This document shows positions 8,117-61,182 of a stretch of DNA of 64,000 nt, piece by piece. Positions within the stretch are counted from its first letter, which is position 1. Each line of letters begins with the position of its first letter. The stretch lies in IMG/VR virus record IMGVR_UViG_3300045988_046609, one strand, 5' to 3'. Source of the DNA: a virus. Under the pieces are notes generated by a model. That model did no database searches, was not told where the DNA came from, and saw nothing but the letters and a program-made list of their open reading frames with translations. The position numbers and the translations under genes are program-made.

Positions 8117-8965
8117 TTAGGATAGATCTTCAATTATTTCATCCTCATTAGAAATATTAGTTCCTGTTCTTATTACTCCATTTAAGCTAAGATTCATATC
8201 TTTAGCTAATTCATCTAATGGAATATCTTCGAAGAGAACAACTTCATCTAAGAATGCTGAAATATTATCAAATGATTTAACTTCCATATGCTCGACAATG
8301 AAGTTCACGACTTCATCTATATTCTTTATTCCTTTATCTTCTGCCATACAGCGTACAAATGCAGAATTAGAGTTTGCTTTGTATTCTTTAAAATAACGAA
8401 CACGTGAACAACGATCAAAGAAGTTATCGTCTATCTGATCTGTTTTGTTACAGGTCATCAATACTAGTTTTTTAGATGTAGCTTCCACACCGTCTAAGAA
8501 TCCTAATAGATCCTTAGTTTCCCACCAATAAGTGTTTTTTTCAATCTCATCAAACATAACTGCTACAGGAGTAGTAAAATGTTTAAAGAAACTAGTAAGT
8601 TTATTAGCAGGGTAGTCGTTTGCGACTATGATAATAGGTAAATTACTTTCTAGGGCAATACGTTTAGAGAGCATTGTTTTGCCTGTACCTTTAGTACCTG
8701 CAAGTAATATACCGGTTGTCTTTCCAGAATTATCAGAATTAAAATAACTTAATACACGTTTGATAAATTTATTATCTTCTTCTAGTTTGTATAATTTCTT
8801 TGGCATGTTCAAATCACCATTTTCTTTGAGATAAGATCTACCTTGCATTCTATCATACTCTAGATCGTATACTTTGTTACTTATGAGTTCATAAGAAATA
8901 CCTTCTAACTTAGGTTTAACTGTAATCTCATTTCCGATCTTAATAAATTCTGCCATAATATTCAT
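8117..8965 (-). CDS. AAA+ family ATPase
   Basis: Walker A LLAGTKGTGKT. Walker B VAVMFDEIE. Downstream TCN sensor-like motif. Confidence 0.8.
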   Translation of the reverse strand: MNIMAEFIKIGNEITVKPKLEGISYELISNKVYDLEYDRMQGRSYLKENGDLNMPKKLYKLEEDNKFIKRVLSYFNSDNSGKTTGILLAGTKGTGKTMLSKRIALESNLPIIIVANDYPANKLTSFFKHFTTPVAVMFDEIEKNTYWWETKDLLGFLDGVEATSKKLVLMTCNKTDQIDDNFFDRCSRVRYFKEYKANSNSAFVRCMAEDKGIKNIDEVVNFIVEHMEVKSFDNISAFLDEVVLFEDIPLDELAKDMNLSLNGVIRTGTNISNEDEIIEDLS

Positions 8966-8968: not shown

Positions 8969-9361
8969 TTATGTTTTCAACTTGCTGATTAACTCATCAA
9001 CTTGTTTCTGTGTATGTACCACATAAAACGCTGTATTAGGTTCATGTGTGTACAAATAGTAGTTAAATAACTTTTCACGCAAAGCCCATGTATCATTTGG
9101 ATAGCCTTTGCATTCAATAATAAACTTATCACCTACAAAATCAGGTTTATAAGTTATTGCCCTATATTTCTTATCACCAAAAGTAAAAGCTGGAAGCAGT
9201 TCGTATCGTTGAGTTTCATACTCAGCTTTAATATTTGACTCTTCCAGCTTCTTATATGTATATGTCTCAAGTTTGCTTTTAAACCTAATACCATTATACT
9301 CATTTGGTGTTGCATTGCGAATTTTGCTTTCGCTAGGCTTATTTCTTTTCCTCTACGTCAT
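8969..9361 (-). CDS. DUF1064-like PD-(D/E)XK endonuclease (Holliday-junction-resolvase-like) with TAG at codon 3
   Basis: Not in the ORF track. Hand translation gives ATG ACG TAG AGG..., i.e. M-T-TAG-RKRNKPSESKIRNATPNEYNGIRFKSKLETYTYKKLEE...YRAITYKPDFVGDKFIIECKGYPNDTWALREKLF...SKLKT-TAA. There is no Met codon after the TAG. The xYxPDF...ExKG core is typical of DUF1064. Confidence 0.65.
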
Positions 9362-9412: not shown

Positions 9413-10387
9413 TCATTTGTTAATATTTTTAGTTAACCAATTTTTTACTTTTTCAAATCCATTAGCTTTAATAGCATCAGATATATCCTTTGCCTTAAAT
9501 TTCTTATGGATTAACATACCTTCTAAGCCTGTTTTTTGACTCATTTTACGAAGATATTTTACTCCAGCTCTGTCACGATCAAATAATATAATAATGCGCT
9601 TAAAACGCTTCTTAAGTCTATCTAATACCTTTTCAGGTATAAAGGTTGATTCTGAAGACGGAGATATTGCTGGTATTCCCATTTCGTATAAACACATGAC
9701 GTCTTTCATACTCTTTGTAATAATGAGTATATCTCCAGTCTTAGGTAACTGTTTATAACCTTGAATATCTAATTCAGTTAGGTTATTACGCCATTTTGTA
9801 TATTTGTCGGCTAAAGGTTTATATATCTTAAAATGATTATAAACTTTATATGCATACATTGGATTATCTTCTTTGTAAACGCTTTTTACTATGCCGTTGC
9901 ATAGGTAGTACTTTATACTACTTACTCCAAACTTCTTTAAAGTATCTACCGTAATATTAAACTGCTTCCAGTAATTGATGTCAGTATCAGTGAAATTCTG
10001 ACGTACTACACCAATTACTGTTTCAGTTGACGGTATATATTGCTTAGAGCTAACTAATTGCGTATCTTTAGTAATTTTAAGTTTCTGAATAATATCCTTA
10101 AGTATATCATTATAATTTGTTAATCCAGTATAAATACTTACAAATTTAATAACGTTACCGCATTCTCCAGTTCCATGATCTTTAAACATTAACTGTTTAC
10201 TAGTTCTACTATAGAAACATCCAAATGATGGGTTTCTATCTTTACGAAACGGACTATTGTAAATCATCCCTACTTTAAAATTACCTATATACGCAGCATA
10301 TATATCATACTCCGTTACTTTAGAAAGTATATAATCTAAAGTAATATTATCATCATCGTTTATTATTTTCGTTGTATCGTAAGTCAT
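9413..10387 (-). CDS. DNA primase (zinc-finger plus TOPRIM, DnaG-like)
   Basis: N-terminal SPFRKDRNPSFGCF...HGTGECG zinc-finger-like motif. TOPRIM-like ILIITKSMKDVM and IIILFDRDRAG. The start is set at the second ATG (10387) because the track start (10411) lies inside the tRNA-like acceptor stem. TGA stop. Confidence 0.8.
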   Translation of the reverse strand: MTYDTTKIINDDDNITLDYILSKVTEYDIYAAYIGNFKVGMIYNSPFRKDRNPSFGCFYSRTSKQLMFKDHGTGECGNVIKFVSIYTGLTNYNDILKDIIQKLKITKDTQLVSSKQYIPSTETVIGVVRQNFTDTDINYWKQFNITVDTLKKFGVSSIKYYLCNGIVKSVYKEDNPMYAYKVYNHFKIYKPLADKYTKWRNNLTELDIQGYKQLPKTGDILIITKSMKDVMCLYEMGIPAISPSSESTFIPEKVLDRLKKRFKRIIILFDRDRAGVKYLRKMSQKTGLEGMLIHKKFKAKDISDAIKANGFEKVKNWLTKNINK

Positions 10388-10402
10388 ATGATATATTTTT
10401 AG

Positions 10403-10489
10403 TAGGAGCATAGAGATTCGAACTCTATAATAAATAAGAAATATATCTTTTTCTTATTTATACCATATTTCTGAATATCAGAAACTCCT
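10403..10489 (-). ncRNA. tRNA-like element with a 12-bp hairpin in place of the anticodon arm
   Basis: Minus-strand read: AGGAGT(T)...(T)GCTCCT acceptor-like stem. T arm TAGAG-TTCGAAT-CTCTA. Central perfect 12-bp stem ATAAATAAGAAA / TTTCTTATTTAT with an 8-nt loop. No canonical D arm. 87 nt in total. Confidence 0.4.
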
Positions 10490-38822: not shown

Positions 38823-38830
38823 CTTAATAT

Positions 38831-38905
38831 TCCCCTATGGTGTAATGGTAACACTCGGAGCTCTAACCTCCGTATTGCCCGTTCGAGTCGAGGCTGGGGG
38901 GACCA
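38831..38905 (+). tRNA. amber suppressor tRNA, anticodon CUA (Gln-like body)
   Basis: Acceptor TCCCCTA/TGGGGGG (two G-U pairs). U8. D arm GTGT-AATGGTA-ACAC. Anticodon stem CGGAG/CTCCG. Loop CTCTAAC with CTA at 38863-38865, U33 and A37. T loop TTCGAGT, with a T stem GCCCG/CG(A)GGC carrying a 1-nt bulge. Encoded ACCA end. Confidence 0.85.
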
Positions 38906-39580: not shown

Positions 39581-41633
39581 TATGGTAGATTTCAACAAAT
39601 AGATAAAAAATAGCGATAAGTTTAGAGAACCAGCCTTGTAGTTTATAGCTACAGGGCATTATTGTTCATATCCGATTGGAACAACAGAATATTTCCAATA
39701 TTGGGATGAGCAAAAACGTAGATGTATCGACGGTTATACTTCTGATGATGGTGATTTCATCAGCGGGTATAACTATTTTTATTTAAACTTTTGTCCTATA
39801 TCAAGAATTGTAAATGAAACAATACTTAATAGCGATGGTAGTTATACTGTAAAACGAAAGAATAAAGTAACATTTCCAGACTTTTGGGATTATGATTACT
39901 ACTTTTTTACTGCATTTAATGATGCAGAAGACCAAGGAAAACACATGTGTGTACTAAAATCACGTAGAAAAGGTTTTAGTTATAAAGGTGGTGCAATGTT
40001 ATGTCGTAATTACTATTTAGTACCTAACTCAAAATCATTTGTATATGCTGCTAATAAGCAATACTTAACAGAAGATGGTATTCTTACTAAGGCATGGGAC
40101 TATATGGACTTTATAGATAAGAATACTGCATGGGGTAAGAAGAGGTCGGTTAACACATAGATGCGCAAACGTGCTGGATTTTTTAGTAAAGACGAATATG
40201 GTAATGTAGTAGAATTAGGATATAAATCAGAAATAATTGGAGTTACTTTAAAGGATAATCCTAGTTCGATTCGTGGTAAGAAAGCAAACTTAATACTATT
40301 TGAAGAAGGTGGTAGTATGAGCGAGCTATCTGCAGCTTGGCAAATTGCAAGACCTTCTGTTGAAGTAGATGGTGTAGCATTTGCATCTATGCTTATATGG
40401 GGTACTGGTGGTGATGAAGATAGCAAATTCTCAACACTAAAGGACATGTTCTATAATCCAGAAGGCTATAACTGTATAGGATTCGATAATATATGGGATG
40501 AAACTGCTACTAGTAAATAGTGTGGATTCTTTGTCCCACAATATACTAATATGGATTTAAGAGATAAAAGTGGTAATCGTTTATATATGGACGAAGATGG
40601 AAATACTTTATATAAACCAGCCCTATAGTACATATTAGATGAAAGAAAAAAAGTAATAGAAAATGCTACAAATTCTACAGCTATTGATAGATATGTTGCA
40701 GAACGACCAATAACTCCAGCAGAAGCAATGCTTGAATTTAATGGTAATATATTCCCTAAAAAAGAACTACAAGAACAACTAGCTAGAATAAGGACTAATA
40801 AAAGTCTAAGTAATCACAAACAGGTTGGTGATTTAGTTTGGGAAAAAGATGGCACTTTAAAATGGGTTATTAAAAAACATGGAGACATAACTCATTATCC
40901 TTTAAAGAAGGACGATGATCCAACCGGTTCTATTGTTATATGGGAACATCCTGTAAAGGACGCTCCGTAGGGCTTATACATATTAGGAGTCGATCCATAT
41001 GACCACGACTAGTCTGGTACTAATTCACTAGGTTCTACTTTTGTATACAAACGTTTCTAGAGTTTCGAAAACTATTATGATATTATTGTTGCTGAGTATA
41101 CTGGCCGCCCATCTACAGCTGAAGAGTATTATGAAAATTTACGCAAGTTAGCCGTATATTATAATGGCAGAATCATGTACGAGAATGAGCGCAAAGGCTT
41201 GTTCCCTTATTTTACTGCTAAGCATTGCGACTATTTGCTGGCTGACCAACCCGATATTATTTCCGATGTAGTTGGTAATTCCAAAGTACAAAGAAAAAAA
41301 GGTTGCCACATGAATAAATAGATCAAACAATGGGGAGAAGGCTTGATTAAGGACTGGTTAAATGAAGAATAGGCTCCTGGTAAAAAGAACCTGCACAACA
41401 TATTGTCAGAGCCGCTATTAGAAGAGCTTATAAGCTATAATGATACAGGAAACTTTGATAGAGTCATGGCGTTGATGCAGGTGATGATTTATAGAGAGTA
41501 GCTCTATAATGTGAAGGTTAAAGAGAAGAAAAAAGAGAATAAAAATAGAGTACTATTTGAAGGCCCTATTTTTACTCAAGAATGGTATCGTGACGACGAT
41601 ACTATTGATAATATAAAAGCATATATGTTTTAA
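39581..41633 (+). CDS. terL: terminase large subunit, TAG-recoded, with a +1 frame break at a T6 run (39775-39780)
   Basis: The N-terminal 66 codons are in frame 2 (...EYFQYWDEQKRRCIDGYTSDDGDFISGYNYF). The rest is in frame 0 (YLNFCPISRIV...). ATPase motifs VLKSRRKGFSYKG and LILFEE. Nuclease motif LGVDPYDHD. At least 10 in-frame TAG codons. TAA stop at 41631-41633. Confidence 0.85.
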
Positions 41634-41635
41634 CT

Positions 41636-44152
41636 ATGAAAAATATCAATCAATTTCCACTATAGAAACTACCTATGTCTAAAAAGACAGAAGACTGGAA
41701 GAAAAGTTGTGTAGACTATATAATTGGTAAAAGTCAAGGTGGTTCTAGAAATGGTAACAATAGAACTCGTAAAGAAGAGATGTAGACATACTATGATTTG
41801 TATAATAGTATATACAATGAAAAAGATTTAAAGTATGTTACAAACCCATTTAAACAATAGGACGGGTTTCCAGCTATGGCTTAGGATTATAATATAATCA
41901 AACCCAAGATAGACCTGTTACTTGGAGAAGAGACTAAAAGACCATTTAATTTCAAAGTAGTTCGTACTAGTGAAATAGCTACTAGTGAAATGCAAGATAA
42001 AGCTAAACAAATGTTGATAGACTATATTCAGGCTACTATTATGAGTAAATTAGGGCCAGAAGAACAAGCTAGATATCAACAAGCTTTAGAGTCTGGAGAG
42101 ATTATGCCTCCAGAATAGATACAAAAGTATATGAGTAAAGACTATAAGGATATTGCCGAAATAACTGCATACCATAGTCTAAATTATTTAAAGAATAAGT
42201 TAAATATTACTCATGAGTTCTTCAAAGGTTGGAAAGATGCCTTAATAGGAGGAGAAGAAATCTATTATGTAGGTATATTAAATGGAGAACCTTGTTTAGA
42301 ACGAATCAATCCTCTGTATTTTGATTATGATACTGAAACATCAGATCTAGAATTTATTCATGATGCACAGTGGTGTGTCTATGAAATGAAACTATCTGTT
42401 ACTGACATATACGATAGATATTATGATAAATTGTCTGAAAAACAATTAAACGAGCTTCTAGATCTCATGAGTGACTCAGCAAAAGGAGGAGTTAATCCTG
42501 AGGTACGTAAAACTTCATTAGATTATCCTCATATTAAAACCCACACCATTAATGGTTTTAGTACTAATCCTTTTGAGGACGGGAGTAACATAAGCGTATG
42601 GCATACATGTTGGCAAGGTTTTAAGAAAATAGGTTTCGTTACTATAACTGATCCAGAAACTGGAGAGCCTGTAGAATATGTAGTAGATGAGACTTACAAT
42701 GTTACTGGTATGGAGTTAAATGTAGAATGGAAATGGATTATAGAGACATATGAAGGATATAGAGCTGGAGAAGATCTATACTTCGGTATGCAACCTATAG
42801 AGTACCAATTCGTATCTGCTGATAATCCTAATGCTTAGAGATTACCATATACTGGGGTAATATATAATAATACTAATAGTAAACCTAGATCTTTGGTAAG
42901 CATGATGAAACCATTACAGTATATGTATATTGTACTATGGTACCGTCTAGAATTAGCGATGGCTAGAGATAAAGGCAAAGTAGTGAATATGGATATTACT
43001 CAGATACCAAAGTCTATGAATATAGATGTATCCAAATGGATGCATTATTTGTCAGCTCTAGGGGTTAATTTTATTAATCCGTATGAAGAAGGTTGGGACA
43101 TACCGGGTAGGGAAGGTGGTAAGCCTGCTCAATTTAATCAGATTACAGCATTAGATCTTACTATGGCTAATACTATTAATTAGTACATTATGTTAATGGA
43201 TAAGATAGAATCTATGTTATCTGAAATATCTGGAGTAAGTAAGCAAAGGGAAGGTAGTATATCCTCTAATGAATTGGTAGGCAATGTAGAAAGATCTGTA
43301 GTATAGTCTGCTCATATTACTGAACCATGGTTCTGGACTCATGATCAAGTAAAGAGATAGGCTATTAGTATGCTTTTAAACACTTCTAAATGGGCTTGGA
43401 AAGACAATAAAACAAATCTATAGTATATACTAGATGATGCTACCAGAGCCTTTATAACATTGTCAGACAGCTTCTTCTATGAAGATTATGACGTATTTGT
43501 TGAAGATACTACTAAAAATCAACAACAAATAGATGCACTTAAGAATCTCATGCAACCAGCTATGCAAAATGGAGCTAGCTTACTTGATATCACAGAGATC
43601 ATTACTATGGATAATGTGGCTATGATCAAAAATAAGCTTGAAGAAATTGAACAGAAGAGAATGGAACAACAGCAAGCTATGGAACAAGCGCAAGCCGAAC
43701 GTGAACAATAGATGTTGCAGATGCAGAATGAGGTTAAAGAAGAAGAACTTATGCTTAAAGAAGCTGAAATGGATCTCAAGAAATATGAAATTGATTCTAA
43801 CAATGCAACTAAGATTACTGTAGCCCAATTGAACGCTTATAGAGGTGCAGAGAATATGGACCAGAATGGAAATGGAATACCAGATACTATGGAAATTGCA
43901 GCTCAGGCATTAGCAGAAAGAAAGCAAGCATCTGATGAAGCTTCTAAACAATTTGAATTCAACAATAAGGTAAGAGAACAACAATTGAAGAAGGAGATAG
44001 AGGATAAGAAGATTGAACTTGAAAAACAGAAATTGCAAGCTCAAAAAGATATCCAAAAACAAAAAGATGATGCAGCTCTTGAAAGAGAAAGAATTAAAGC
44101 TAGAACGGCATTGAAAAATAAAACTAATGCAGAAGCAGCGAGAGGTAAATAA
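41636..44152 (+). CDS. portal protein, TAG-recoded
   Basis: A single frame-2 reading of 838 sense codons joins track ORFs 42131-42838, 42893-43183, 43460-43711 and 43712-44152 through TAG only. It lies immediately downstream of TerL. Coiled-coil K/E/Q-rich C-terminus. Confidence 0.75.
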
Positions 44153-44179
44153 TTATGGCAGTAGTAGGAGAGAAGTAAT

Positions 44180-44488
44180 ATGAAATTAATATATAATAAT
44201 ATTATACCTTTTAAAGGGTTTAAGGCAATGAATTTATTTGGTTTGTGTTTTGTACGCAAAGGTATGAAAATGTCTGAAAAAGATATTAATCATGAAAGTA
44301 TACATACAGCACAGATGAAAGAATTGTTATATATACCTTTCTATCTGATTTACTTTTGTGAATGGCTGGTAAGATTATTTATGAAGGGTAATGCTTATAG
44401 AAATATAAGCTTTGAGAAAGAAGCTTACAATAACGAAAAGGATTTAACATATTTAAATAGGAGGAAACATTATGGCATGTGGAGGTAA
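44180..44488 (+). CDS. small protein with HExxH motif (HESIH)
   Basis: 102 aa with no TAG, containing INHESIHTAQ. A zinc-peptidase-like function is tentative. Confidence 0.55.
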   Translation: MKLIYNNIIPFKGFKAMNLFGLCFVRKGMKMSEKDINHESIHTAQMKELLYIPFYLIYFCEWLVRLFMKGNAYRNISFEKEAYNNEKDLTYLNRRKHYGMWR

Positions 44489-44537
44489 AAGTCAGGCTCT
44501 AAAAAGGGCAAAGGTGGAAAGAAATAATTGAAAGATT

Positions 44538-46088
44538 ATGAATCGAGAAGCATTTAAATAGAGAATGCAGAGCTTAAAGTCTTACCGGGAGCAAAATCCC
44601 GGTAAAGGTTATTTGGATTGGAAAGCTTCATTACCAGATAATTTACAAGATGAGAGTAGCTATAATCTGTAGAGAGCATATGAACTTGGATATGAACCAG
44701 AGTATGTTGAAGAAGATAGATCTTATCATTTACCAACTAGAGATCAAGAAACAGGAGAAATACTTAAGAAACCTTGGCATCCTACATTCTTAATAGGATT
44801 ACTAGAAGATGCTAAATTAGGTTATTATCCGTAGATTATAAAGGGTACTACATATACTACTACATGGGAAGGTAATGAAAATCCTATTTATAAGTATGAG
44901 GATGGTGGTGAAGTACCTCCAACCAATAAACCTACTATAATTGAACCTATACCGTATAAAGGTAAGTTATACAAAGATAGATATGGGCGTAAGTATACTG
45001 AAGATCAGTTAGCTGATTATTATGATAATAGTAGTGATGAGATTGATAGATTTACCGGTAAACCATTCATCAGAGGTTTGAAACCGATAGTAGATCTTGA
45101 AGATGCCGCAAATGTAACTCCTATTGGTGATGCCATATCTATATATGATACTTATGAAGCTTTAAGAAATAAAGACTGGTCTGGTGCAGGTTTAGCAGCA
45201 ATGGGTCTAATTCCTTTTATGCCAATGACTGTTAAACAATTTAGAAGTTCATACAAAGGTATAACTCCTAAGGTAAAGAGACCTATTCCTAAAGTAAACA
45301 GAGCGGCAGAACAGTTAGAAAAGGATAGAATAATAGAAGCTGCTCGTAGAGAGTAGTATCTTAAACCTAAAGCCAGAAACGAAGGATATAAAGTAGTCGA
45401 AAGATTGCAAGATGATCCAGATTATTTCAATAGAGCTATGTAGGTTCGTAAACAATTCGGTGATAACTATGTGCGGACTTATGCAGATTTAATATCTACA
45501 TATAATACTGATCCTAGTAAATTACCTCAGGTAGAACTTACTAATAATCTTCCTAATGCTAGAGCTTAGACGGGTGCTACTACCAGTGCTGCAAATAGAC
45601 ATATGGCTGGAGGAGAATTCCCTAGAATGGAGGAATTCAATTATAGAATAGATCCGACTAAAACAGATTTATCAGGTAATGTAACAGAACATGAATGGAA
45701 TCATTTAGTAGATTATCTTACAAATAAAACTCCAGGAGCATCTGGAAATAGTAATTTATTCTATAAGATGAGTGAGGATATCAGTAACGATAAGATAGAT
45801 AAACATTTTGAATACTATATGAGACCAACTGAATAGAAGGCTTATATGAATCAAATTAGAGAATATCTATTTAACAGTGGCAAAATTAACAGAAGAGGCG
45901 ATAAGGTTGATGCTAAATTGCTTCAATAGACTTTAGATACTTTAAAGGATACTGATACTTATGGATCAGCAGTGAGAGCTAGTAAATAGTTTAAGAATAT
46001 TAATAAGTACACTAAGTGGTTTAACTCTATACCATTATTAGGTTTAGGTACTGCTGTAGTATATAAAGGAACTGAGTAGAATGAATGA
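44538..46088 (+). CDS. virion-module protein, TAG-recoded (about 516 codons)
   Basis: The frame-0 reading from ATG 44538 joins track ORFs 45078-45356 and 45603-45836 through TAG only. TGA stop at 46086-46088. Confidence 0.65.
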
Positions 46089-46314
46089 TATAAGAGATAT
46101 GGTAGGGATAATGCCACAGTATCCGATACCTAATTATAAAGATGGTGGGGTACATATCAAAAAGAAGAATAGAGGCAAGTTTAATGCTTTAAAGAAACGT
46201 ACCGGTAAAAGTACGGAAGAACTTACGCACAGTAAGAACCCACTAACTAGGAAGAGAGCTATCTTTGCTTAGAACGCTAAGAAATGGAAACACAAAGGAA
46301 GAAAGAGAAAATAA
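46081..46314 (+). CDS. small basic protein, one in-frame TAG
   Basis: Track ORF 46081-46272 continues past TAG (46270) as NAKKWKHKGRKRK to TAA at 46312-46314. Confidence 0.55.
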
Positions 46315-46332
46315 ATCTAATTATATATAATT

Positions 46333-47511
46333 ATGGAAAAAGAAACATTAAACGGTTTTGAAATATTTGAAGATTTCATGCCGGGAGCTAATGTATTTAC
46401 TAAGACAGAAATCAAGCAACCTGGCGAAGATACTGAGGTAGATGATACTAAGGTAGATGAAGATGCTGTAACAGAAGAGTTAACTGACGAAGAACTGGAA
46501 GGATTACGCAATCCTAAAAAGGATAAGAAAGATGATAATTCGTCTAAAGAGGATGAAGAGCAGGACACGCCTGTTAAAAAGAAAACCGGAAAGGATAAAG
46601 AAGTTGAAGAAGATGATGATTCAACTAGAGAAGACGAAGGAAGTACAAAGACTGAAGAAACTGATGATGACACTAATGCAGTAAGTGCATTCTTTGGAGT
46701 AATGGCAGAAAAAATGGGCTGGGATCTCGATGAAGAAGAGGAAATTCCTTCTACTCCTGAGGAACTCGTTGACTATTTTCAATCAGTAATTGAAGAGAAT
46801 TCAGTACCTCAATATGCTAGTGAAGAAGTAGAGGCACTGGATAATTTTGTTAAGAACGGTGGTAATCTTAGAGACTATTTCGAAATTGATGGCGAACTTG
46901 ATCTTGAAGAAATTAGTATTGAAGAAGACGAAACAAATCAAAAACTTGTATTAAAAGAATTCTTGAAGGAAAAAGGTTTTAATAGCAAACAAATAGAGAA
47001 AAAATTGACTAAGTACGAGGATGCAGGTTTACTTGAGGATGAAGCTGAGGATGCCTTGGAAGCCTTGAAAGAGATAAGAGAACAGAAGAAACAACAGCTA
47101 TTGAAAGATCAAGAAAACCAAGCTAAGGCGGCTCAGAAGCGTCAACAGGAATACTTTTAGAACGTTGTCAACGAAATAAAAGGCATGGATAATATACGCG
47201 GTATTAAGATACCTGAAAAAGATAAAAAGGTATTACTAGAGTATATATTTAAACCTGACGCTGACGGTATGACCAGATTTCAAAAAGATTGGTCTAAGAG
47301 CGTAAAGAACTTACTTGAGTCTGCTTACTTTACTATGAAGGGAGACACATTGTTAAAAGCTGCTAAAAGTGAAGGTTCTAATAATGCTATTAGTAAATTC
47401 AAAAACAGTTTAAGTAAAACAGGAGTAAGTAGGAAGACTAAAAAACAGGAAATCTCTAATGAAGATACTACTTTATGGAGTTCCTTTGCACGACAATTAC
47501 GTGTAGATTAA
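46333..47511 (+). CDS. acidic coiled-coil protein, scaffolding-protein candidate; one in-frame TAG
   Basis: Frame 1 joins track ORFs 46333-47160 and 47185-47511 through TAG at 47158. Highly D/E/K-rich. Located upstream of the capsid gene. Confidence 0.55.
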
Positions 47512-47533
47512 TAATAACTAATTAAATTAGTTC

Positions 47534-48109
47534 ATGAAAGAGAAAGAAGTCTGGAAAGATATTCCAGGATATCCTGATTACTAGATTAGTAGTCTTGGTA
47601 GAGTAAAGTCTCTATAGCATACTGTGTTTCATTCACCTTCTAGAAGATTTCCAAATGGTAGGTAGGTAACGTATAAAGAAAAAATTTTAGTTCCAGCTAT
47701 AGAAGGAGGAGGTTATTGCTTTGTAGTCTTATATAAAGATAAAGTAAAAAGAAGTTATAGAATACACAGATTGGTTGCATAGATGTTTTTAAATAATCCA
47801 AATAATTATGATTAGGTTAATCATAAAGATGAAGACAAATTAAATAACTGTGTAGATAATCTAGAATGGTGTGATGCTAAGTATAATGTTAATTATGGCA
47901 CTGGAAAATATAGGAAAACTTTAAGTAGACGTATTCCAGTATTACAATTTACACTTGACGGAGTATTCATAAGAGAACACGATAGTGCTACTGAAGCGGC
48001 ATACTCTTTAGGATTAAAATAGTTTTATGCTAGAGACATTCTTAGAGCATGTAGTGGACGATATAAAACAGTAAAAAATTTTATTTGGAAATTTAAAAAT
48101 AATAACTAA
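47534..48109 (+). CDS. HNH homing endonuclease (NUMOD4-like N-terminus plus HNH_3-like core), itself TAG-recoded
   Basis: Hand translation: MKEKEVWKDIPGYPDY-TAG-ISSLGRVKSL-TAG-HTV...YRIHRLVA-TAG-MFLNNPNNYD-TAG-VNHKDEDKLNNCVDNLEWCD... Seven in-frame TAG codons counted. TAA stop. Confidence 0.75.
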
Positions 48110-48114
48110 AATAT

Positions 48115-49584
48115 ATGGATAACAATATATTAAATAATTTGGTTTTGTACAAAGGCAAGTGGTTCAGTGATCTGATTGATACTGCTAAAATTTCAGCAGC
48201 TTCACAATAGAATCCGTATCAGGTTGCTACCGTATTGTCTTATGTATTTGGTACTAAAGATAATGGTTACAACACTTCTTTGGATATGCTCACTGGCGGT
48301 CTTGGTAATGTAATGACCATTGATCAGCCTAGTTGGGAGTGGAATGTAATGATTGATGCTGATAGAGCAGTAACAATTAGAGATGCTAAATGGAATGGTG
48401 CAGCTATCACAGATTCTTCTACAGCTGGTTTGGGTAATACTCCAATCATGTTGTGGTTAGAAGATAATTGGTTCGGACCTACCGCTGTATTGGAATTTGA
48501 TAACAAGGACTTCCAAGTACGCGTTGCAGGTGCTCCTTACCAAGATGGTAATCTGTGGGTTTATACCTGTTATATTGCAGACGGCCAGCCTACTTCTTAT
48601 ATTCCTGCTGAATACCTGAAACCTGGTTGCCAAGTGTCACGTCTAGCTTCTGCTGTAGAAGAATATAGTGAAGAAGGTGATATCCTGAACTATAATACTG
48701 CATTTAAGATGCGTAATTATTTAACTACAATTCGTATCAATTATGATATTACTGGTTCAGCTTATTCTACAGTAATGGCTATTGCATTGCAGGATCCTAA
48801 GACAGGTAAGAAATCTTATCTGTGGGCAGACTACCAAGAATGGGTTGCTATGAGAGAGTGGTATAAGAGATGTGAAAGAATGTTGGTTTACATGAAGAAC
48901 AATGTAAACAAAGATGGTACTTGTAATCTGAAAGGTACTAACGGGCGTCCTGTATTTATGGGTGCTGGTTTGTTGGAACAGATTGCTCCGTCTAACAAAC
49001 GTTACTATACTAGACTTACTGCAGAATTGTTAGAAGACTTCTTATTTGATCTGTCATATAATGTACTTGGTACTAATGAACGTAAGTTTGTTGCATTGAC
49101 CGGTGAGATGGGTATGAGAGAATTTGATAGAATTCTGAAAGAAAAGATGGTTAACATGAATCTTATTGACACAGTATTTGTTACAGGTTCTGGCGATAAT
49201 CTTACTTTTGGTGGTCAGTTTAAGACTTACAAAATGACTAATGGTATTGAATTGACTCTGAAGTACTTCCCGTTGTATGATGATGTTACTTATAGTCGTC
49301 AATTACATCCTGTTACGTTGAAACCTCTAGAATCATATCGTATGACATTCTTAGATCTTGGTAGACGTGATGGTGAGGCTAACATCGTAAAAGTAGTTCG
49401 TAAAGATCGCGAGTTTGTTACTTGGTATACTGGTGGTGCAGTTGCTCCGTCTGGTTATGCAAATTCTAAGAATACTCTGAGATCTAATGGTAAGGATGGT
49501 TATACTGTATTCTTCCTTGGAGAGATGGGTATTATGATTAGAGATCCCCGCGCATGTGGCGAGCTCATAATGGAAGCTGAATAA
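48115..49584 (+). CDS. major capsid protein candidate (about 489 codons), one in-frame TAG
   Basis: ATG 48115 in frame 1, with a TAG at 48208-48210, then track ORF 48235-49584. The call rests on size, position after the scaffold-like gene, and few TAG codons. Followed by a strong hairpin. Confidence 0.7.
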
Positions 49585-49657
49585 ATTGTTGATAACTAAC
49601 CACAGCATAAATTAAATTCTTACGTTATAGTAGTATAAACTAAAAAATTATACTACT

Positions 49658-50278
49658 ATGACAAGAATTTATAAAATAACAGATAATACTAATAATAAGA
49701 TTTATATAGGACAGACATTTAGAGATCTTAAAAAAAAGATTTAGTGACCATAAGAGTCATGCTATTAAATCTGAAAGACCTAACGATTTAAATTGTTTAT
49801 TGTATCAAGCTATGCGAGAGCATGGTACTGCTAATTTTAGTATTGATTTATTAGAAGAAGTAGATGGTACTAGATATGAAGGAGACAAGAGAGAGGCATT
49901 CTGGATAGCTGAATTGGACGCTATGAATCCCGAAAAGGATATAATAAGGATAAAGGTGGTCATACAATATCAGAAGCATGCCGTAGAGCTAGAATAAAAC
50001 AATTAACTGGTTCCAAGTTAGAAGGAAAACAATTAGAAATAGTTAGAGATAATGGGAAGAAAATGTCTAAGAAAGTATGTCAGTACAATGTTAATACTGG
50101 TGAACTAATCGCAGAATATCCAAGTATAATAGGAGCTAGTAGAGATACAGGATGTGATAGAAGAACTATTCAAAGGCAATTAAATGGAGAAGCAAATATC
50201 GGAACTCCACATTCTATAGGAAATCTTAAGTATATCTGGAAATATAAAGAACAACTAACTGAACAATCTAATATTTAA
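49658..50278 (+). pseudogene. GIY-YIG homing endonuclease disrupted by two homopolymer frameshifts
   Basis: N-terminus IYKITDNTNNKIYIGQT in frame 2 breaks at an A8 run (49730-49737). The middle part RFSDHKSH...AFWIAELDAMNPEK is in frame 0. There is a second break at an A4 run (49933-49936). The C-terminus GYNKDKGGH...ASRDTGCDRRTIQRQLNG is back in frame 2. Confidence 0.7.
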
Positions 50279-50282
50279 TATT

Positions 50283-51035
50283 ATGGAAATAATCGTTAGA
50301 ATAATTAAATCAAATCCTTGGATAGGGATTACAAAATGGCCTACATGTTATGATCATGTAAGCTCATACTGGACTAGATCCGGTAATTTATATACAGGTT
50401 TAACTGCAGAAGATGCAGCTAGATTAGAAAAAGAATTAGGTTTTGCAGAAGGTCATTTGGCACCTAATAGTAACTATTGGGATACTTTTGCCATTAAGAT
50501 CGGCAAAAAAGATGTATTACTTGATACTGATAAACCTGAAGATGAACTAAAATATCTGTTCCTTAAAGGGCATAAGAGAGTGGCAAATGGGTTGAATAAA
50601 ATAACACCTGCTACTGATTATGTTATTATTAACAAGAACAGTGAAGCTGAAGAAGCTAATAAGATCAATAAGATCAAACGTGAAGCATATAGAGAAATGG
50701 ATAAGATGTCCATTGAAGACATGCGTAAGTGTTTAAGACTTTATGGAATTAGAACTGAAAACATGTCTAATGAGCTTATTGAAGCTAAATTGACAGAACA
50801 GATTGAAAAAGATCCTAGATCTTACATACTTAAATGGGTAGAAAACCCAAACAAAGAAATAAACTTTGTAATTGAAGAAGCTATTGCAAAGAATATCATT
50901 AGAAAGAATAGGGCTCAATATTACTTTGGTACAGATCTGATTGGTAATGGTTTGGAAGATGTAATAGCTTATTTGAAAGATAAGAAGAATAATGATATTA
51001 AGATGGCAATCTTAAATGAAATTAAGTCTAAATAA
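50283..51035 (+). CDS. hypothetical virion-module protein (no TAG)
   Basis: 250-aa ORF with TAA stop. Confidence 0.7.
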   Translation: MEIIVRIIKSNPWIGITKWPTCYDHVSSYWTRSGNLYTGLTAEDAARLEKELGFAEGHLAPNSNYWDTFAIKIGKKDVLLDTDKPEDELKYLFLKGHKRVANGLNKITPATDYVIINKNSEAEEANKINKIKREAYREMDKMSIEDMRKCLRLYGIRTENMSNELIEAKLTEQIEKDPRSYILKWVENPNKEINFVIEEAIAKNIIRKNRAQYYFGTDLIGNGLEDVIAYLKDKKNNDIKMAILNEIKSK

Positions 51036-51733
51036 TGAATAACCGTACTGCACATATTTAGTTTAAAGTTATCCTAGATAAGAATGCTTAGGGAGTTGCC
51101 TTTGGGGGAGCTCCTGCATTCCTACCTTAGGAGATAGATTTATTTCTTAACTAGGCTTAGGACGATGTAATAAGCAACAAAATAAGCGGCAACAACGTAC
51201 TAAAGTTAGGTTTTGAAGGATCATTACAGAGAATATCTGAATTAGATAAGCTCATACGTACAGATGAAAATATAATAATGCAGAAGAATGTATATAATGA
51301 ATTTGTATTAGATAATGTACATGCTGATGGAAATAGAGTAACGATATGGGCGGTAACACTAAAGTATGGCAATAATTTTGCTAACTGCATGATTGTTGAT
51401 CATAATACTGCACTGTTATTCAAACAGACTTATAATAATATACCTTGGGTAGAAGTACCAGTAGTAGTATTGGAAGATAATAAAATGTTACTGTACGTTG
51501 ATCCAATATTAATGCAGCAGACAGATTATGCTCCCTCTAACAATAAATATGCAGTAAATATTACTTACATAAAGAAACCTACTCAATTTGACTATACTAA
51601 TCTAGACGGTGAATTAGATTTACCTGATGATGTAATGTCAGAAGTAATAAATAGAGCTGTAGTGTTAGCATTAGAAAATATTGAATCTCAAAGAACCTCT
51701 AGTAAATTACAGTTAAACCAATTATCTGAATAA
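51035..51733 (+). CDS. virion-module protein, TAG-recoded (232 codons)
   Basis: The ATG overlaps the previous TAA. Frame 2 contains five early TAG codons and then track ORF 51278-51733. Confidence 0.6.
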
Positions 51734-51735
51734 TT

Positions 51736-52401
51736 ATGACAGAAAGAGAATTTCAAGTAGCATTTGAAAGGTAGTTGAGTACTATAGTTCCTGGTTACAA
51801 TCTAAAGGTAAAGTTACCTTCAGATACTATATTCTTCTATATCAATAAAGCTAAAGATGAATACGTAAAACAGGTATATAGAGTATTCCAACAGAATCAA
51901 GAACTATCTGATAAGTTACGTACATTAGTATAGACAAATACGTATAATTCTTTGGACTTTAAAGTACAAGATAACAAATGGATAGTACAATATCCCAATA
52001 ACTATTTATTCAGTTTAGGAGAAGAAGTTTAGATTAAAATACTTGACAATAAATGTCCTAACTTAGTAACTAAAACTAGAGATGTCATTGAAGCCACTAT
52101 TGAAACGGTAGATCGAATACTGGAAAACAGTCTTTCGGAATATCACTTACATCATAATTAGGCCAGACCAGTTAGATTGCAAACAGAAAACAATATTGTA
52201 TTGTATACTGACGGTAATTATGCTATTCACAAATATACCCTCACTTTTCTAAGGTCTGCAAAAAATATAGGTTAGAATTTAACCAAAGAGTACACAGAAT
52301 TACCTGAACATACTCATTAGGAAATTGTAGATGCGGCTGTAAATATGTATATAGCACAAGCTGCTTCAACACAAAGATCAGAGAAATCTGATGAACAATA
52401 A
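51736..52401 (+). CDS. virion-module protein, TAG-recoded (221 codons)
   Basis: Not in the track. Hand-read in frame 1 from ATG 51736 to TAA at 52399-52401, with six in-frame TAG codons and no other stops. Confidence 0.6.
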
Positions 52402-52498
52402 TGCGTTCATGAACGTGGAAATCTGAAATAAGGAAAGTAGAACATGAACTAAGTTTACATGAGCGCGCATTTATGTTAAACTAAAAATAAATTTTAAA

Positions 52499-53470
52499 AT
52501 GATTCAACACGTAAATACCGTTTTAATCGGTAAAAATCTTCCATCAGCTTATACTACTGCTGATGCACTTTCTGCAGGTGATGTTGCTCTGTTTGACCAG
52601 AATAGAGCTATTATCAAAACAGCTGCTGACGCAGCTAAAGCTACTTCTTTGTATATAGGTGTAGCTCAGAATAAAGTAAAAGTTACTATGCCTGACGGTA
52701 GTGTGGCTGATAAGGCTAATATTAAATTTGGTAATGAAATTCAGAAGAATTCTAATCCAAGTGCAGTTATTGGAGAATATGTAGCTCCGGTTTAGGACAA
52801 GATTGTTATTACTCTTACCGATGCTACTATCATTGCAGGTCACAGATATGTACTGAGAATAGTATATAAAGACATGTATGAAGCTCCGGGTCAGTTTACA
52901 CATACTTATGAAGTATTTGCTGCTAACACTACTGCTGCTGACTTAGCTGATGCTATCGTTAAAAAGATTAATAAACATGCTAACCGTAGAGTTAATGCGT
53001 CTGCATCTACTGCAGTTATTACTTTAACTGCAATGGAAAAAGATGACAATAACGGTGTATATTCATTGAATGAATATTCTGTAGTAGATATGGAAGCTAG
53101 TTTGTATGTTACTATTCCTGGTGCTATTTTGAGTAACCAGCCTGATGCTATTCCTGGTGCTACGATCGTTAAAACTCCTGGTAATCCTGGTAAAGGTTAC
53201 TGGAAACAAGTACGTGATGCTGAGGTGCGCTATATGGGTTACCAAGGTCATGTGTTTACTGGGGCTTATCCTGAAGTAGTACAAGATAGAATGGTAGAGC
53301 AAGATGCTACTTACGATTACATTACTGTAGAAAACGATAATAAGTATTTGAGTAACGATAATCAATACATCAAAACCACTCCGCTTACTACTGAACTGTA
53401 TGTTAAGCATTCAACTGATTTTGCTACTTCTATTGTAGCAAAAGGTATCGAAAACTTCATCGCTGCCTAA
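52499..53470 (+). CDS. abundant-structural-protein candidate (323 codons), one in-frame TAG
   Basis: Frame 2 joins track ORFs 52499-52795 and 52874-53470 through TAG at 52793. Followed by a terminator. Confidence 0.65.
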
Positions 53471-53492
53471 TAATTAACATTTTACTAAACGA

Positions 53493-53536
53493 AAGTGGGG
53501 CGGGTTGGATTATTCCTTCCCACTCCACTTTTTTAT
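53493..53536 (+). terminator. intrinsic terminator
   Basis: Imperfect GC-rich hairpin AAGTGGGGCGGG...CCCACTCCACTT, followed by TTTTTT. Confidence 0.6.
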
Positions 53537-53539
53537 TTT

Positions 53540-54163
53540 ATGATTATGAATAAAATAGTTAATGTAAACTTTAAAAACGATACTATGACTTTTGAAGTAT
53601 ATAGCACTATATCTATAGTAAATACTAATGACATAGTTCTATATGTTGACGAATGTTTAAATATCGCTAATATTTACTGTGATAGTCCAGATAATCATGA
53701 TTATGTATTGAATTACACTAATTGTGAGTTCACTCTGAAAGAAATCGTAAGAGATGGAGAAGAGAAGGAAGTAACTACATAGTATGCATATGAGATATCT
53801 GCTACATCAGATATTATATCTAAGTTTGATACTAATATTAAGTACATTAAAATGTTTTGTACTACAGAGAGATACGCAAATGACTATGCAGATGGAGTGT
53901 ACTATAATCCTAATATACTTTATAATGCTGAAATAAGAGTATTACACAATTATTGTAGCACCTGTTTAGATGATAGACAAATGCAAACTATAATGTTAAT
54001 AGTCTTTAAAAGACAGCTTCTAGAATAGGCTATTGCTACTTCTCATAATAAAGAGGCTTTGCAGTTTTACTTAGAATTAAGTAAGTTATTAGACGTTAAT
54101 ATAGACAGTAATGTAGCTAGCACTCCTTGTAATAAATGTATTAACGGAGTATGTAAATTATAA
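53540..54163 (+). CDS. virion-module protein, TAG-recoded
   Basis: Frame 2 from ATG 53540 (MIMNKIVNV...) runs through TAG at 53780 and one further TAG to TAA at 54161-54163. Cys-rich C-terminus. Confidence 0.6.
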
Positions 54164-54170
54164 AAATATT

Positions 54171-54383
54171 ATGTGCACATGTAATGAATTAAAATAGTTC
54201 TTATATGTTGCTCTAGACTTCTAGGGTAACATCGTAGTAATATCAGATTATGCTAGTTATCCTAATGTAGAAGTTGATCCAAAAGATAACTAGATTACTT
54301 TTGATGAACCAGATGTTAAAGACTTTATTAAACCAGATACAAAATTAATTTTTTAGAATGGAATACACAAAATTATTAGGTAA
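54171..54383 (+). CDS. possible small protein with four in-frame TAG codons
   Basis: Frame 0 reads MCTCNELK-TAG-FLYVALDF-TAG-GNIVVISDY... and ends at TAA, overlapping the tail-fibre start by 26 nt. Weak support. Confidence 0.3.
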
Positions 54384-59721: not shown

Positions 59722-59723
59722 TT

Positions 59724-59990
59724 ATGAATGATCTAAATAATTACGTAAATAATAAACTATTATACTCTGTAAAGTATAATAACAGAGACGTAGTATCTGC
59801 TATATGCTCTAATGAGTTATAGTTTCTACTTACTAAAGTAGAATTTGTTCAAGATAGATAGATGCTAGAATCTATGATCTGTGGAATTAATAGACAGATA
59901 GATAAAGATATACCTTTAAAGTTAGTTAAAGTGTGTAACATAATAAATTGTAAAGACTGTAATTATTGCAGGACCTGTTGCTCAAATTAA
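59724..59990 (+). CDS. small Cys-rich protein, two in-frame TAG codons
   Basis: Hand-read in frame 0. The C-terminus is ...VCNIINCKDCNYCRTCCSN-TAA. Confidence 0.45.
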
Positions 59991-60024
59991 CGTTCAGTAT
60001 TATTATTAACTAAATATGTAAATT

Positions 60025-61165: not shown

Positions 61166-61182
61166 CACAAAGGCGGATACAG

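What the first reader, a model, noticed from the sequence alone, without database searches (positions are those of the whole stretch)
8969..9361. A lone TAG at codon 3 of a DUF1064-like nuclease gene, which has no other possible ATG start
The gene reads ATG ACG TAG AGG AAA ... (ATG at 9361-9359, TAG at 9355-9353). A 127-codon DUF1064-like body follows and contains no Met codon, which is why the ORF track misses it. The conserved core begins only about 19 codons after the TAG.

Neighbouring genes in this block use TAG as a stop. Under the standard code this is therefore a 2-codon start-stop mini-ORF placed in front of a start-less gene.

Possible explanations:
- Suppressor-dependent expression, so the gene is made only once tRNA(CUA) is present.
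- Termination followed by reinitiation.
- A rare ATT start at 9322-9320.

The ORF is also in the same frame as the upstream primase gene, which ends in TGA at 9415-9413, 17 codons before the ATG.
Basis: seen in the sequence. Interest (0 to 1): 0.65.

Follow-up and report, generated by a model that had tools for sequence, protein, structure and literature searches.

The report
Amber-gated nuclease gene in crAss-like phage
In a gut crAss-like phage that reads TAG as glutamine late in infection, one predicted DNA-junction-cutting nuclease gene among the early replication genes carries a conserved TAG just after its start, so it can probably be made only once the phage's suppressor tRNA is present.

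Summary
On the minus strand, ATG (9361-9359), ACG and TAG (9355-9353) precede a 127-codon DUF1064 nuclease body with no Met codon.

The window is crAss-like phage cr56_1 (Suoliviridae, Loutivirinae; 99.3% identity). RefSeq already annotates this CDS as a "Holliday junction resolvase" read through the TAG.

The phage is TAG-recoded:
- It encodes a tRNA(CUA) at 38830-38905.
- 29% of Gln-type codons in its late genes are TAG.
- None of 164 Gln-type codons in 19 other replication-block genes is TAG.

The TAG is not a strain mutation. Of 49 distinct related genes, 47 carry at least one TAG at codons 2-9, in at least a dozen different tail contexts. The site shifts between lineages. The body is under purifying selection (dN/dS about 0.1-0.3). 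No other replication-block gene in 54 related loci has a genuine internal TAG.

I rejected a frameshift, an ATT start, reinitiation and a pseudogene.

Best reading: translation depends on the suppressor, and so is delayed or dampened, for a probably toxic nuclease that sits inside an otherwise standard-code operon. This is a new instance of a known principle. It is not universal, because Oafivirinae and cr4_1 lack it. Timing and enzyme activity are untested.

The parts
8969..9361 (-). DUF1064 / PD-(D/E)XK nuclease gene. It has 130 sense codons if TAG is read as Gln, then a TAA stop. RefSeq annotates it in cr56_1 as 'Holliday junction resolvase' (YP_010112291.1).
   Evidence: Homologues are 125-138 aa and share the same short N-terminal tail. 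dN/dS is 0.1-0.3.
9359..9361 (-). ATG start codon of the nuclease gene.
   Evidence: Homologues begin at the equivalent Met, followed by a short K/R-rich tail.
9353..9355 (-). In-frame TAG (amber) at codon 3. This is the proposed suppressor-dependent gate.
   Evidence: Of 49 distinct related genes, 47 have at least one TAG at codons 2-9.
9317..9352 (-). K/R-rich N-terminal tail (RKRNKPSESKIR). It is predicted to be disordered and lies between the TAG and the conserved core.
   Evidence: AlphaFold pLDDT is below 50 for body residues 1-13. Tail sequence is variable among relatives.
9107..9268 (-). Nuclease active-site span: E29 (9268-9266), D71 of the PDF motif (9142-9140), E80 (9115-9113) and K82 (9109-9107). 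Numbering is for the 127-residue body.
   Evidence: These columns are invariant in a 31-sequence alignment. Coordinates were verified. The weak sequence alignment to T7 endonuclease I covers this motif.
9413..10411 (-). Upstream DNA primase gene, ending in TGA at 9415-9413. A 51-nt spacer separates it from the nuclease ATG.
   Evidence: No terminator or notable RNA structure was found in the spacer.
8117..8965 (-). Downstream AAA ATPase gene. Its ATG (8965-8963) lies 3 nt after the nuclease TAA, so translational coupling is possible.
38830..38905 (+). Phage tRNA with a CUA anticodon (amber suppressor). It lies directly upstream of the TAG-rich late gene block that starts at 39582.
   Evidence: ARAGORN. 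Rfam tRNA model, 33.1 bits against a gathering score of 29.
39582..62985 (+). Late (structural) gene block with many in-frame TAG codons. Together with 5-5703 (+), it shows that the phage uses TAG as a sense codon.
   Evidence: 111 TAG against 270 CAA/CAG, so 29% of Gln-type codons.

Best explanation
**What it is**
- The gene at 8969-9361 (-) is a functional DUF1064 nuclease gene of the PD-(D/E)XK type. It is annotated by homology as a Holliday junction resolvase.
- It starts at ATG 9361.
- Its third codon, TAG, is read as glutamine by the phage's own tRNA(CUA), as in the roughly 110 TAG codons of the late genes.

**How it probably works**
- The gene sits in the replication operon, which is otherwise strictly compatible with the standard code.
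- Ribosomes that start on it before the suppressor is available stop after Met-Thr.
- Full-length nuclease is made only once tRNA(CUA) has accumulated, and at a level limited by competition with release factor 1.
- The amber codon therefore acts as a gene-specific delay or leak-damper for a DNA-branch-cutting enzyme. Such an enzyme is probably harmful early, during recombination-dependent replication, and needed late, to debranch DNA before packaging.
- Placing the TAG right after the start avoids making truncated nuclease fragments.

**Shown here:** the gene structure, conservation of the TAG, purifying selection on the body, the recoded state of the phage, and avoidance of TAG in the other replication genes.

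**Inferred:** Gln identity for this particular codon, late timing of suppressor activity, the toxicity and packaging rationale, and that the pattern is adaptive rather than merely tolerated.
For: **Gene structure**
- Homologues are 125-138 aa. They consist of Met, a short K/R-rich tail, then the (K)VRNATPNEY core. This fixes the start at ATG 9361.

**Conservation of the TAG**
- Database proteins read MTQ, MMQ or MQ, but in the DNA of L001-L007 that Q is TAG.
- All 54 loci available at that stage (68-100% identical, plus one at 44%) carry a TAG in the tail, except L030, L031 and L052.
- Five more divergent relatives carry TAG at codons 2-6, one of them twice.
- Named genomes cr52_1, cr60_1, cr113_1, cr53_1 and cr115_1 also carry it.
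- In 49 distinct genes the tail holds 50 TAG against 24 CAA/CAG. The core holds 1 TAG against 136 CAA/CAG. Fisher p = 8e-29, with the caveat that the sequences are related.

**The TAG site moves while a TAG is kept**
- MEQKKK#GKVK has CAR-Gln at the upstream site and TAG at the downstream one.
- MKR#REKKQGKVR has the reverse.

**The body is a working gene**
- dN/dS is 0.07-0.31, while dS reaches about 1 or saturates.
- Catalytic residues E, D, E and K are invariant.

**The phage is recoded, but its early genes are not**
- tRNA(CUA) is present.
- TAG makes up 29% of Gln-type codons in late genes and 0 of 164 in 19 other replication-block genes.
- No genuine internal TAG occurs in 16 other replication-block gene families across 54 loci. 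The apparent exceptions lie upstream of starts or at exon and insertion junctions.

**TAG aligns with true Gln codons**
- KK#GKV aligns with KKQGKV.
- HT#KQ aligns with the window's HTQKQ.

**Literature**
- TAG read as Gln was shown by metaproteomics in crAss-like phages (PMC9523058).
- A late code switch has been proposed as a translation timer. That work includes a homing endonuclease inside an early gene that is gated by an in-frame stop (10.1101/2021.08.26.457843).
- Phage junction resolvases are toxic when cloned and are linked to packaging (PMC3485210).
Against: - The feature is not universal. The TAG-recoded phages cr131_1, cr272_1, cr124_1 (Oafivirinae), Dulem virus 42, cr4_1 and L030/L031 have no TAG in this gene. 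The gate is therefore dispensable.
- Some Buchavirus genomes have 1-2 extra TAGs in the core. That fits a gene merely tolerated under the late code as well as it fits a designed 5' gate.
- The K-rich tail offers many AAG-to-TAG and CAG-to-TAG one-step mutations, so mutational opportunity is high.
- There are no expression data. It is unknown when the tRNA(CUA) is made or how efficiently it suppresses.
- Nuclease and resolvase activity are untested. Foldseek matches to solved PD-(D/E)XK nucleases are weak (E at least 0.2), and so are the sequence matches to T7 endonuclease I (E 0.4-0.9).
- The sequences are phylogenetically related, so the p-values overstate independence.
Confidence: 0.7

Rival explanations
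1. Tolerated, non-adaptive recoding. The TAG is read as Gln by the suppressor exactly as above, but it has no regulatory purpose. The nuclease is needed only late, so CAG-to-TAG or AAG-to-TAG changes in a poorly constrained tail drift to fixation, as they do in late genes.
For: - Several TAG-recoded lineages lack the TAG.
- Buchavirus copri, hominis and coli also carry TAGs inside the core.
- The tail is disordered and variable.
- The K/R-rich tail is one mutation away from TAG at many codons.
Against: - Under drift at the late-gene frequency (29% TAG), about 40% of tails would carry a TAG. The observed figure is 47 of 49.
- Core Gln sites would also be about 29% TAG. The observed figure is 1 of 137 in the same set.
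- The TAG is kept while synonymous sites saturate.
- Its position turns over reciprocally with CAR-Gln. That points to selection for having at least one TAG near the 5' end.
Confidence: 0.22
2. The TAG is a true stop. ATG-ACG-TAG is a start-stop mini-ORF, and the nuclease is made by reinitiation or from a non-canonical start downstream, for example ATT at 9322-9320. This would give an N-terminally shorter protein independent of the suppressor.
For: - The tail upstream of the core is disordered and might be dispensable.
- ATT lies two codons before the conserved NATPNEY motif.
Against: - No ATG, GTG or TTG occurs in frame between the TAG and 9082, which is past the catalytic E-x-K.
- The ATT codon is GTA or GTT in relatives, so no alternative start is conserved.
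- In relatives the TAG lies anywhere from 5 to 15 codons before the core, sometimes twice. There is no fixed geometry for reinitiation.
- The K/R-rich tail downstream of the TAG keeps its reading frame and character in all relatives.
Confidence: 0.05
3. The gene is broken or misread. One version is a pseudogene or sequencing error. The other is that the true start is the ATG at 9416-9414, which overlaps the primase TGA as ATGA and reads MIWFTAERKTISRKSNITNDVEEKK*, joined to the body by a +1 frameshift near 9340.
For: - The ATGA overlap is a classic coupling arrangement.
- That frame stays open across the TAG until TAA near 9341-9339.
Against: - None of 527 homologues has such an N-terminal extension. 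All are about 125-138 aa.
- The upstream sequence differs completely in relatives that keep the ATG and TAG.
- The identical ATG ACG TAG appears in independent assemblies (L001-L005, L008-L010, NC_055890).
- The body is under purifying selection.
Confidence: 0.02

Closest known systems
Stop-codon recoding as a translational timer in TAG- or TGA-recoded gut phages (Borges et al. 2021/2022, 10.1101/2021.08.26.457843; Peters et al. 2022, PMC9523058)
   Same: - A phage-encoded suppressor tRNA.
- Early genes compatible with the standard code.
- In-frame stops that block translation until the code switch.
- The paper even describes a homing endonuclease inside an early gene of Agate phages that is gated by in-frame TGA.
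   Different: - That work states that the replication machinery of crAss-like phages is in standard code. It names the preferentially recoded families as the lysis amidase, the spanin, the tail tube and one unknown family.
- Here a single replication-module nuclease is the exception.
- It typically has one TAG placed at codons 2-9 rather than many spread along the gene.
- The TAG is conserved across a subfamily.
Synthetic 'leak dampener': an amber codon placed immediately after the start codon of toxic genes, plus an inducible suppressor tRNA (NAR 2021, e25; PMC7969014)
   Same: The design is the same: a TAG right after the ATG of a toxic gene, with expression only when the suppressor tRNA is co-induced. 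This is a coherent feed-forward loop, and output is reduced by competition with RF1.
   Different: - That system was engineered in E. coli.
- Here the arrangement is natural, evolved in a phage, and conserved across many genomes.
- Whether the tRNA and the gene share an inducing signal is unknown.
Phage Holliday junction resolvases: T7 endonuclease I and T4 endonuclease VII (structure-specific nucleases that debranch DNA before packaging), and SPP1 G44P (a toxic resolvase of the RusA family; PMC3485210)
   Same: - A small phage nuclease in the replication and recombination module.
- A PD-(D/E)XK motif, as in T7 endonuclease I.
- Toxicity and a late, packaging-linked role are the rationale for delaying it.
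- From my own knowledge, not checked here: translation of T4 gene 49 from early transcripts is also held back, by an RNA hairpin.
   Different: - Similarity to T7 endonuclease I is only weak (E 0.4-0.9; PF05367 co-hits in some homologues).
- No DUF1064 protein has been characterised in the papers I could search.
- G44P belongs to a different family, RusA.
- The delay mechanism here would be an amber codon, not RNA structure or promoters.
Classical amber mutants of phages grown on suppressor hosts
   Same: Expression of one gene depends on an amber-suppressor tRNA.
   Different: Here the amber codon is the conserved wild-type state, and the phage itself supplies the suppressor.

Membership tests
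TAG-to-Gln recoded (code 15) crAss-like phage gene | The genome encodes a tRNA with a CUA anticodon. | tested here: met
   tRNA(CUA) at 38830-38905. Found by ARAGORN and by the Rfam tRNA model at 33.1 bits against a gathering score of 29.
TAG-to-Gln recoded (code 15) crAss-like phage gene | Reading TAG as sense restores long late-gene ORFs, while early genes remain compatible with the standard code. | tested here: met
   - Late genes have 111 TAG against 270 CAA/CAG.
- Nineteen other replication-block genes have 0 TAG against 164 CAA/CAG.
- The window is 99.3% identical to cr56_1 (Crassvirales, Suoliviridae).
TAG-to-Gln recoded (code 15) crAss-like phage gene | TAG positions align with Gln in homologues. 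| tested here: met
   - KK#GKV aligns with KKQGKV, where the Q is a real CAA.
- HT#KQVDE in cr52_1, cr60_1 and cr113_1 aligns with the window's HTQKQVDE.
- For codon 3 itself the alignment is in a variable tail, so Gln is inferred there.
TAG-to-Gln recoded (code 15) crAss-like phage gene | Direct protein evidence that TAG is translated as Gln in this phage or this gene. | not testable with these tools
   Metaproteomic proof exists only for other crAss-like phages (PMC9523058).
DUF1064 (PF06356), PD-(D/E)XK nuclease superfamily | Significant match to the family profile. | tested here: met
   - Pfam PF06356: E 2.4e-10, 41.2 bits against a cut-off of 24.7.
- PHROG 190, 'Holliday junction resolvase': E 1.2e-14.
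DUF1064 (PF06356), PD-(D/E)XK nuclease superfamily | The catalytic E ... (P)D ... (D/E)xK motif is intact. | tested here: met
   E29, D71 (in PDF), E80 and K82 are invariant in 31 homologues. Coordinates were verified.
DUF1064 (PF06356), PD-(D/E)XK nuclease superfamily | The restriction-endonuclease-like alpha/beta fold. | tested here: inconclusive
   - The AlphaFold model has pLDDT 86.
- The top Foldseek PDB matches are all PD-(D/E)XK nucleases (PvuRts1I, I-Bth0305I, Cas4, VRR-NUC, TnsA), but with E at least 0.2 and TM 0.3-0.46.
Holliday junction resolvase (functional class) | Structure-specific cleavage of four-way DNA junctions. | not testable with these tools
   - The evidence is annotation by homology only.
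- No characterised DUF1064 member was found in the searchable literature.
- Sequence similarity to T7 endonuclease I is weak.
Start-stop mini-ORF with termination-reinitiation, or a non-canonical start | A usable restart codon that is conserved downstream of the stop and upstream of the functional domain. | tested here: not met
   - No ATG, GTG or TTG occurs before 9082.
- ATT 9322 is GTA or GTT in relatives.
- The distance from the TAG to the core varies from 5 to 15 codons.
Programmed ribosomal frameshift gene | The upstream frame encodes a conserved N-terminal segment that is joined to the body at a conserved slippery site. | tested here: not met
   No homologue has an N-terminal extension. 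The upstream sequence is not conserved among relatives.

The most novel reading that the evidence does not exclude
The 5'-proximal amber codon is a selected, natural single-codon 'leak dampener'.

- It lets a toxic junction-cutting nuclease stay inside the early replication operon while its translation is slaved to the phage's code switch. In effect it is an AND gate of early transcription and late tRNA(CUA).
- The premature stop leaves about 390 nt of untranslated mRNA directly before a gene that starts 3 nt after the nuclease stop. It may therefore also throttle the downstream recombination genes (AAA ATPase, Mre11-like phosphoesterase, RecE/Cas4-like exonuclease) through translational coupling or polarity, until the suppressor appears.
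- This would be the first documented case of gene-specific regulation by an amber codon within an otherwise standard-code module. It would give a direct in vivo read-out of when the code switch happens.
Probability: 0.35. Interest if true: 0.65.

Novelty: new member of a known kind. Interest (0 to 1): 0.5.

Why it matters
Why phages recode stop codons is still argued, mostly from genome-wide trends: late genes are recoded and early genes are not.

This locus is a clean, minimal, gene-level example:
- One amber codon, at the extreme 5' end of one gene.
- It lies inside a module that otherwise strictly avoids TAG.
- It is maintained across a whole subfamily even though its exact position moves.

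That makes the "recoding as a timer" hypothesis directly testable with one reporter fusion or one point mutant. It identifies a predicted junction nuclease as a function that these phages keep off early. It mirrors an engineered synthetic-biology device.

There is also a practical point. Standard-code gene callers lose this gene entirely. Whole-genome code-15 calling hides the fact that it differs from its neighbours.

Tried and rejected
1. **+1 frameshift from the ATG at 9416-9414.** This ATG overlaps the primase TGA as ATGA. It was my own early lead. I rejected it because homologues have no N-terminal extension and the upstream sequence is not conserved.

2. **-1 shift from the small ORF MVHRRKENYFQKI\* (ATG 9411).** This cannot bypass the TAG, because that ORF ends upstream of it.

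3. **Readthrough from the primase.** It would need TGA and TAG to be read through in succession, and the in-frame relation is absent in relatives.

4. **ATT 9322 start or reinitiation.** Rejected as above.

5. **Regulatory RNA structure around the start, as in T4 gene 49.** The fold is no more stable than shuffled sequence (z = -0.43).

6. **Promoter or terminator between the primase and the nuclease.** Nothing beyond shuffle expectation was found. The scan is sigma-70 type and may not apply to Bacteroidota or to phage RNA polymerase.

7. **Apparent internal TAGs in other replication genes of relatives.** On inspection these lie upstream of the start codon, or at junctions where the gene is split by an inserted element.

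8. **My recollection that SPP1 G44P is a DUF1064 protein.** This was wrong. It belongs to the RusA family.

9. **Structural confirmation of a T7 endonuclease I-like fold.** Only weak matches were found.

10. **Literature search for a prior description of this specific feature.** None was found in the held library.

Full report
**1. The observation**

On the minus strand the sequence reads ATG (9361-9359), ACG, TAG (9355-9353), AGG AAA AGA AAT AAG and so on. A 127-codon open frame follows, ending at TAA 8971-8969.
- The frame after the TAG has no ATG.
- Its first canonical start is TTG at 9082, downstream of the catalytic motif. This is why the ORF list shows only a 37-aa fragment.
- The body is a significant match to Pfam DUF1064 (E 2.4e-10) and to PHROG 190, 'Holliday junction resolvase' (E 1.2e-14).

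Two details need correcting.
- The adjacent genes end in TAA or TGA. Likely TAG stops, each backed by an in-frame TAA or TGA 1-9 codons later, are found only 12-21 kb further along the strand.
- The conserved core begins 13-16 codons after the TAG, not 19.

**2. What the window is**

The region is 99.3% identical to crAss-like phage cr56_1 (NC_055890.1; Crassvirales, Suoliviridae, Loutivirinae, Buchavirus faecalis).
- RefSeq annotates exactly this ATG-to-TAA span as 'Holliday junction resolvase' (YP_010112291.1). The public record therefore already translates through the TAG.
- The window encodes a tRNA with anticodon CUA at 38830-38905 (ARAGORN; Rfam tRNA at 33.1 bits). It lies immediately upstream of the plus-strand late block.
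- In the late genes, 111 of 381 Gln-type codons (29%) are TAG.
- In 19 other genes of the minus-strand replication block (4,836 codons), the figure is 0 of 164.
- This is the known two-regime layout of TAG-to-Gln recoded crAss-like phages. TAG read as Gln has been shown by metaproteomics in such phages (PMC9523058).

**3. Where the gene starts**

I first suspected a different structure. An ATG at 9416-9414 overlaps the primase TGA (ATGA) and opens a 25-codon frame that crosses the TAG. The body would then be reached by a +1 shift.

Homologues rule this out. 527 relatives were found, and the 120 best listed are almost all 116-138 aa (one outlier of 174 aa). They consist of Met, a short K/R-rich tail, and then the conserved (K)VRNATPNEY core. 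The start is therefore ATG 9361.

**4. Is the TAG a local mutation? No.**

- Database proteins read MTQ, MMQ or MQ at the N-terminus. In the underlying DNA of L001-L007 that 'Q' is TAG, including loci with unrelated upstream genes.
- All 54 loci available at that stage (core 68-100% identical, plus L052 at 44%) have a TAG in the tail, except L030, L031 and L052.
- Five more divergent relatives have ATG AAG AGA TAG; ATG TAG AAG AAT TAG; ATG AAA AAA TAG; and ATG AGA AGA AAA AAA TAG.
- Named genomes cr52_1, cr60_1, cr113_1, cr53_1 (Loutivirinae) and cr115_1 (Uncouvirinae) have it as well.
- In 49 distinct gene sequences, 47 have at least one tail TAG, at codons 2-9.
- The tail holds 50 TAG against 24 CAA/CAG. 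The core holds 1 TAG against 136 CAA/CAG (Fisher p = 8e-29; the sequences are related, so this overstates independence).
- The site moves. MEQKKK#GKVK has CAR-Gln upstream and TAG downstream, while MKR#REKKQGKVR has the reverse. At least one TAG is maintained while its position turns over.
- The body evolves under purifying selection (dN/dS 0.07-0.31), with synonymous divergence up to saturation.
- The E, D, E and K catalytic residues are invariant.
- The gene is therefore functional, and the protein downstream of the TAG is what is being selected.

**5. Specificity to this gene**

Across 54 related loci, none of the 16 other replication-block gene families has a genuine internal TAG. The few apparent cases lie upstream of the real start or at junctions where a gene is interrupted by an inserted element. 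All relatives examined are TAG-recoded, because their adjacent giant late genes carry 20-40 TAGs.

**6. Limits of the pattern**

- The TAG-recoded Oafivirinae (cr131_1, cr272_1, cr124_1), Dulem virus 42, and cr4_1 and L030/L031 have no TAG in this gene.
- cr6_1 (Bearivirinae) has one inside the core instead.
- The non-recoded cr1_1, cr118_1 and cr50_1 have none.
- Buchavirus copri, hominis and coli carry one or two further TAGs in the core. One of these aligns with a true Gln codon of the window gene.
- The feature is therefore characteristic of a clade, dispensable, and not always restricted to the tail.

**7. Alternatives**

- *Reinitiation or ATT start.* There is no canonical restart codon before the active site. 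The ATT is GTA or GTT in relatives. The distance from the TAG to the core varies from 5 to 15 codons.
- *RNA structure at the start.* None beyond shuffled controls.
- *Promoter or terminator in the 51-nt spacer.* None detected, so co-transcription with the primase is likely. This is an inference.
- *Pseudogene or sequencing error.* Excluded by identical sequence in independent assemblies and by purifying selection.

**8. Mechanism proposed**

- Early in infection the host reads TAG as stop. The strict avoidance of TAG in all other replication genes, and the probable TAG stops elsewhere in the block, argue that this regime really applies to this operon.
- Ribosomes initiating at ATG 9361 then release Met-Thr.
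- When the phage tRNA(CUA) becomes available, TAG is read as Gln and the full 130-aa nuclease is made. Its level is limited by competition with RF1.
- Branch-cutting nucleases are toxic when cloned and are linked to DNA packaging (PMC3485210). Holding this one back while replication and recombination intermediates are needed is a plausible benefit.
- The 5' position avoids truncated products. The tail is predicted to be disordered, so a Gln there costs nothing.
- The next gene starts 3 nt after the nuclease stop. Effects on the downstream recombination genes are possible but speculative.

**9. Comparison with what is known**

- The principle, that stop-codon recoding delays translation until a code switch, was proposed by Borges et al. 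Their work includes a homing endonuclease inside an early gene.
- They describe the crAss-like replication machinery as standard-code and do not mention this gene.
- I found no paper describing it.
- The arrangement is the natural counterpart of an engineered 'leak dampener', in which an amber codon is inserted right after the start codon of toxic genes and read by an inducible suppressor tRNA (PMC7969014).
- DUF1064 is a predicted PD-(D/E)XK nuclease family related to T7 endonuclease I (PMC1189080). Here the sequence and fold matches to solved nucleases are weak. 'Resolvase' therefore remains an annotation.

**10. Verdict**

This is a new, well-supported instance of a known kind of regulation. 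The fact that the TAG is read through is already implicit in the public annotation. The conserved, gene-specific, 5'-proximal amber codon in a standard-code module appears not to have been described, and it is directly testable.

Noticed in passing
window 38720-38822 (+): A second tRNA-like sequence lies directly upstream of the tRNA(CUA). It matches the Rfam tRNA model (35.1 bits against a gathering score of 29), but only with a roughly 32-nt insertion in the anticodon region. Default ARAGORN misses it. With introns allowed, ARAGORN proposes a different, doubtful 'Phe(aaa)' model. It could be an intron-containing or a decayed tRNA.
   Followed up: partly
window 21118-21609, 21609-22001, 24676-25074, 25052-25519, 30270-30746 (all minus strand): Five minus-strand genes have a TAG 1-9 codons before an in-frame TAA or TGA and no other TAG. 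They look like genuine TAG stops with a tandem backup stop. After the code switch, readthrough would then add only a few residues.
   Followed up: partly
window 36249-36455 (+) and 35524-35916 (+): In the TAG-poor plus-strand block upstream of the tRNA genes (33938-38473), a 68-codon ORF has TAG at codon 4 (MRN*TSIY...) and a 130-codon ORF has one at codon 85. The first may be another gene with an amber codon near its start. I did not check whether it is a real gene or whether the TAG is conserved.
   Followed up: no
L064, L066, L030, L018 and L031 (related loci); cr6_1 locus L055: In relatives, several replication genes (AAA_24/Sak4-like, DnaB helicase, DNA polymerase, AAA ATPase) are split by inserted LAGLIDADG, GIY-YIG or HNH endonuclease genes. 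A TAG marks the end of the upstream fragment in some of them.
   Followed up: partly
window about 19020-21115: A stretch of about 2 kb inside the minus-strand block has no ORF of 60 aa or more and no RefSeq feature (record 12585-14738). There is no Rfam match at E up to 0.1, and only weak two-copy repeats.
   Followed up: partly
window 9339-9416 (minus strand): A 25-codon ORF (MIWFTAERKTISRKSNITNDVEEKK*) starts at an ATG overlapping the primase TGA (ATGA) and spans the nuclease start region. It is not conserved in relatives and is probably fortuitous.
   Followed up: yes
L070 (cr52_1), L071 (cr60_1), L054 (cr113_1), L055 (cr6_1): In these genomes the same nuclease gene carries extra TAGs inside the conserved core (KI#ADYE, HT#KQVDE, YTY#KLKE). 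HT#KQ aligns with a CAA or CAG glutamine codon in the window. This is direct alignment support for TAG being read as Gln in this gene family.
   Followed up: yes
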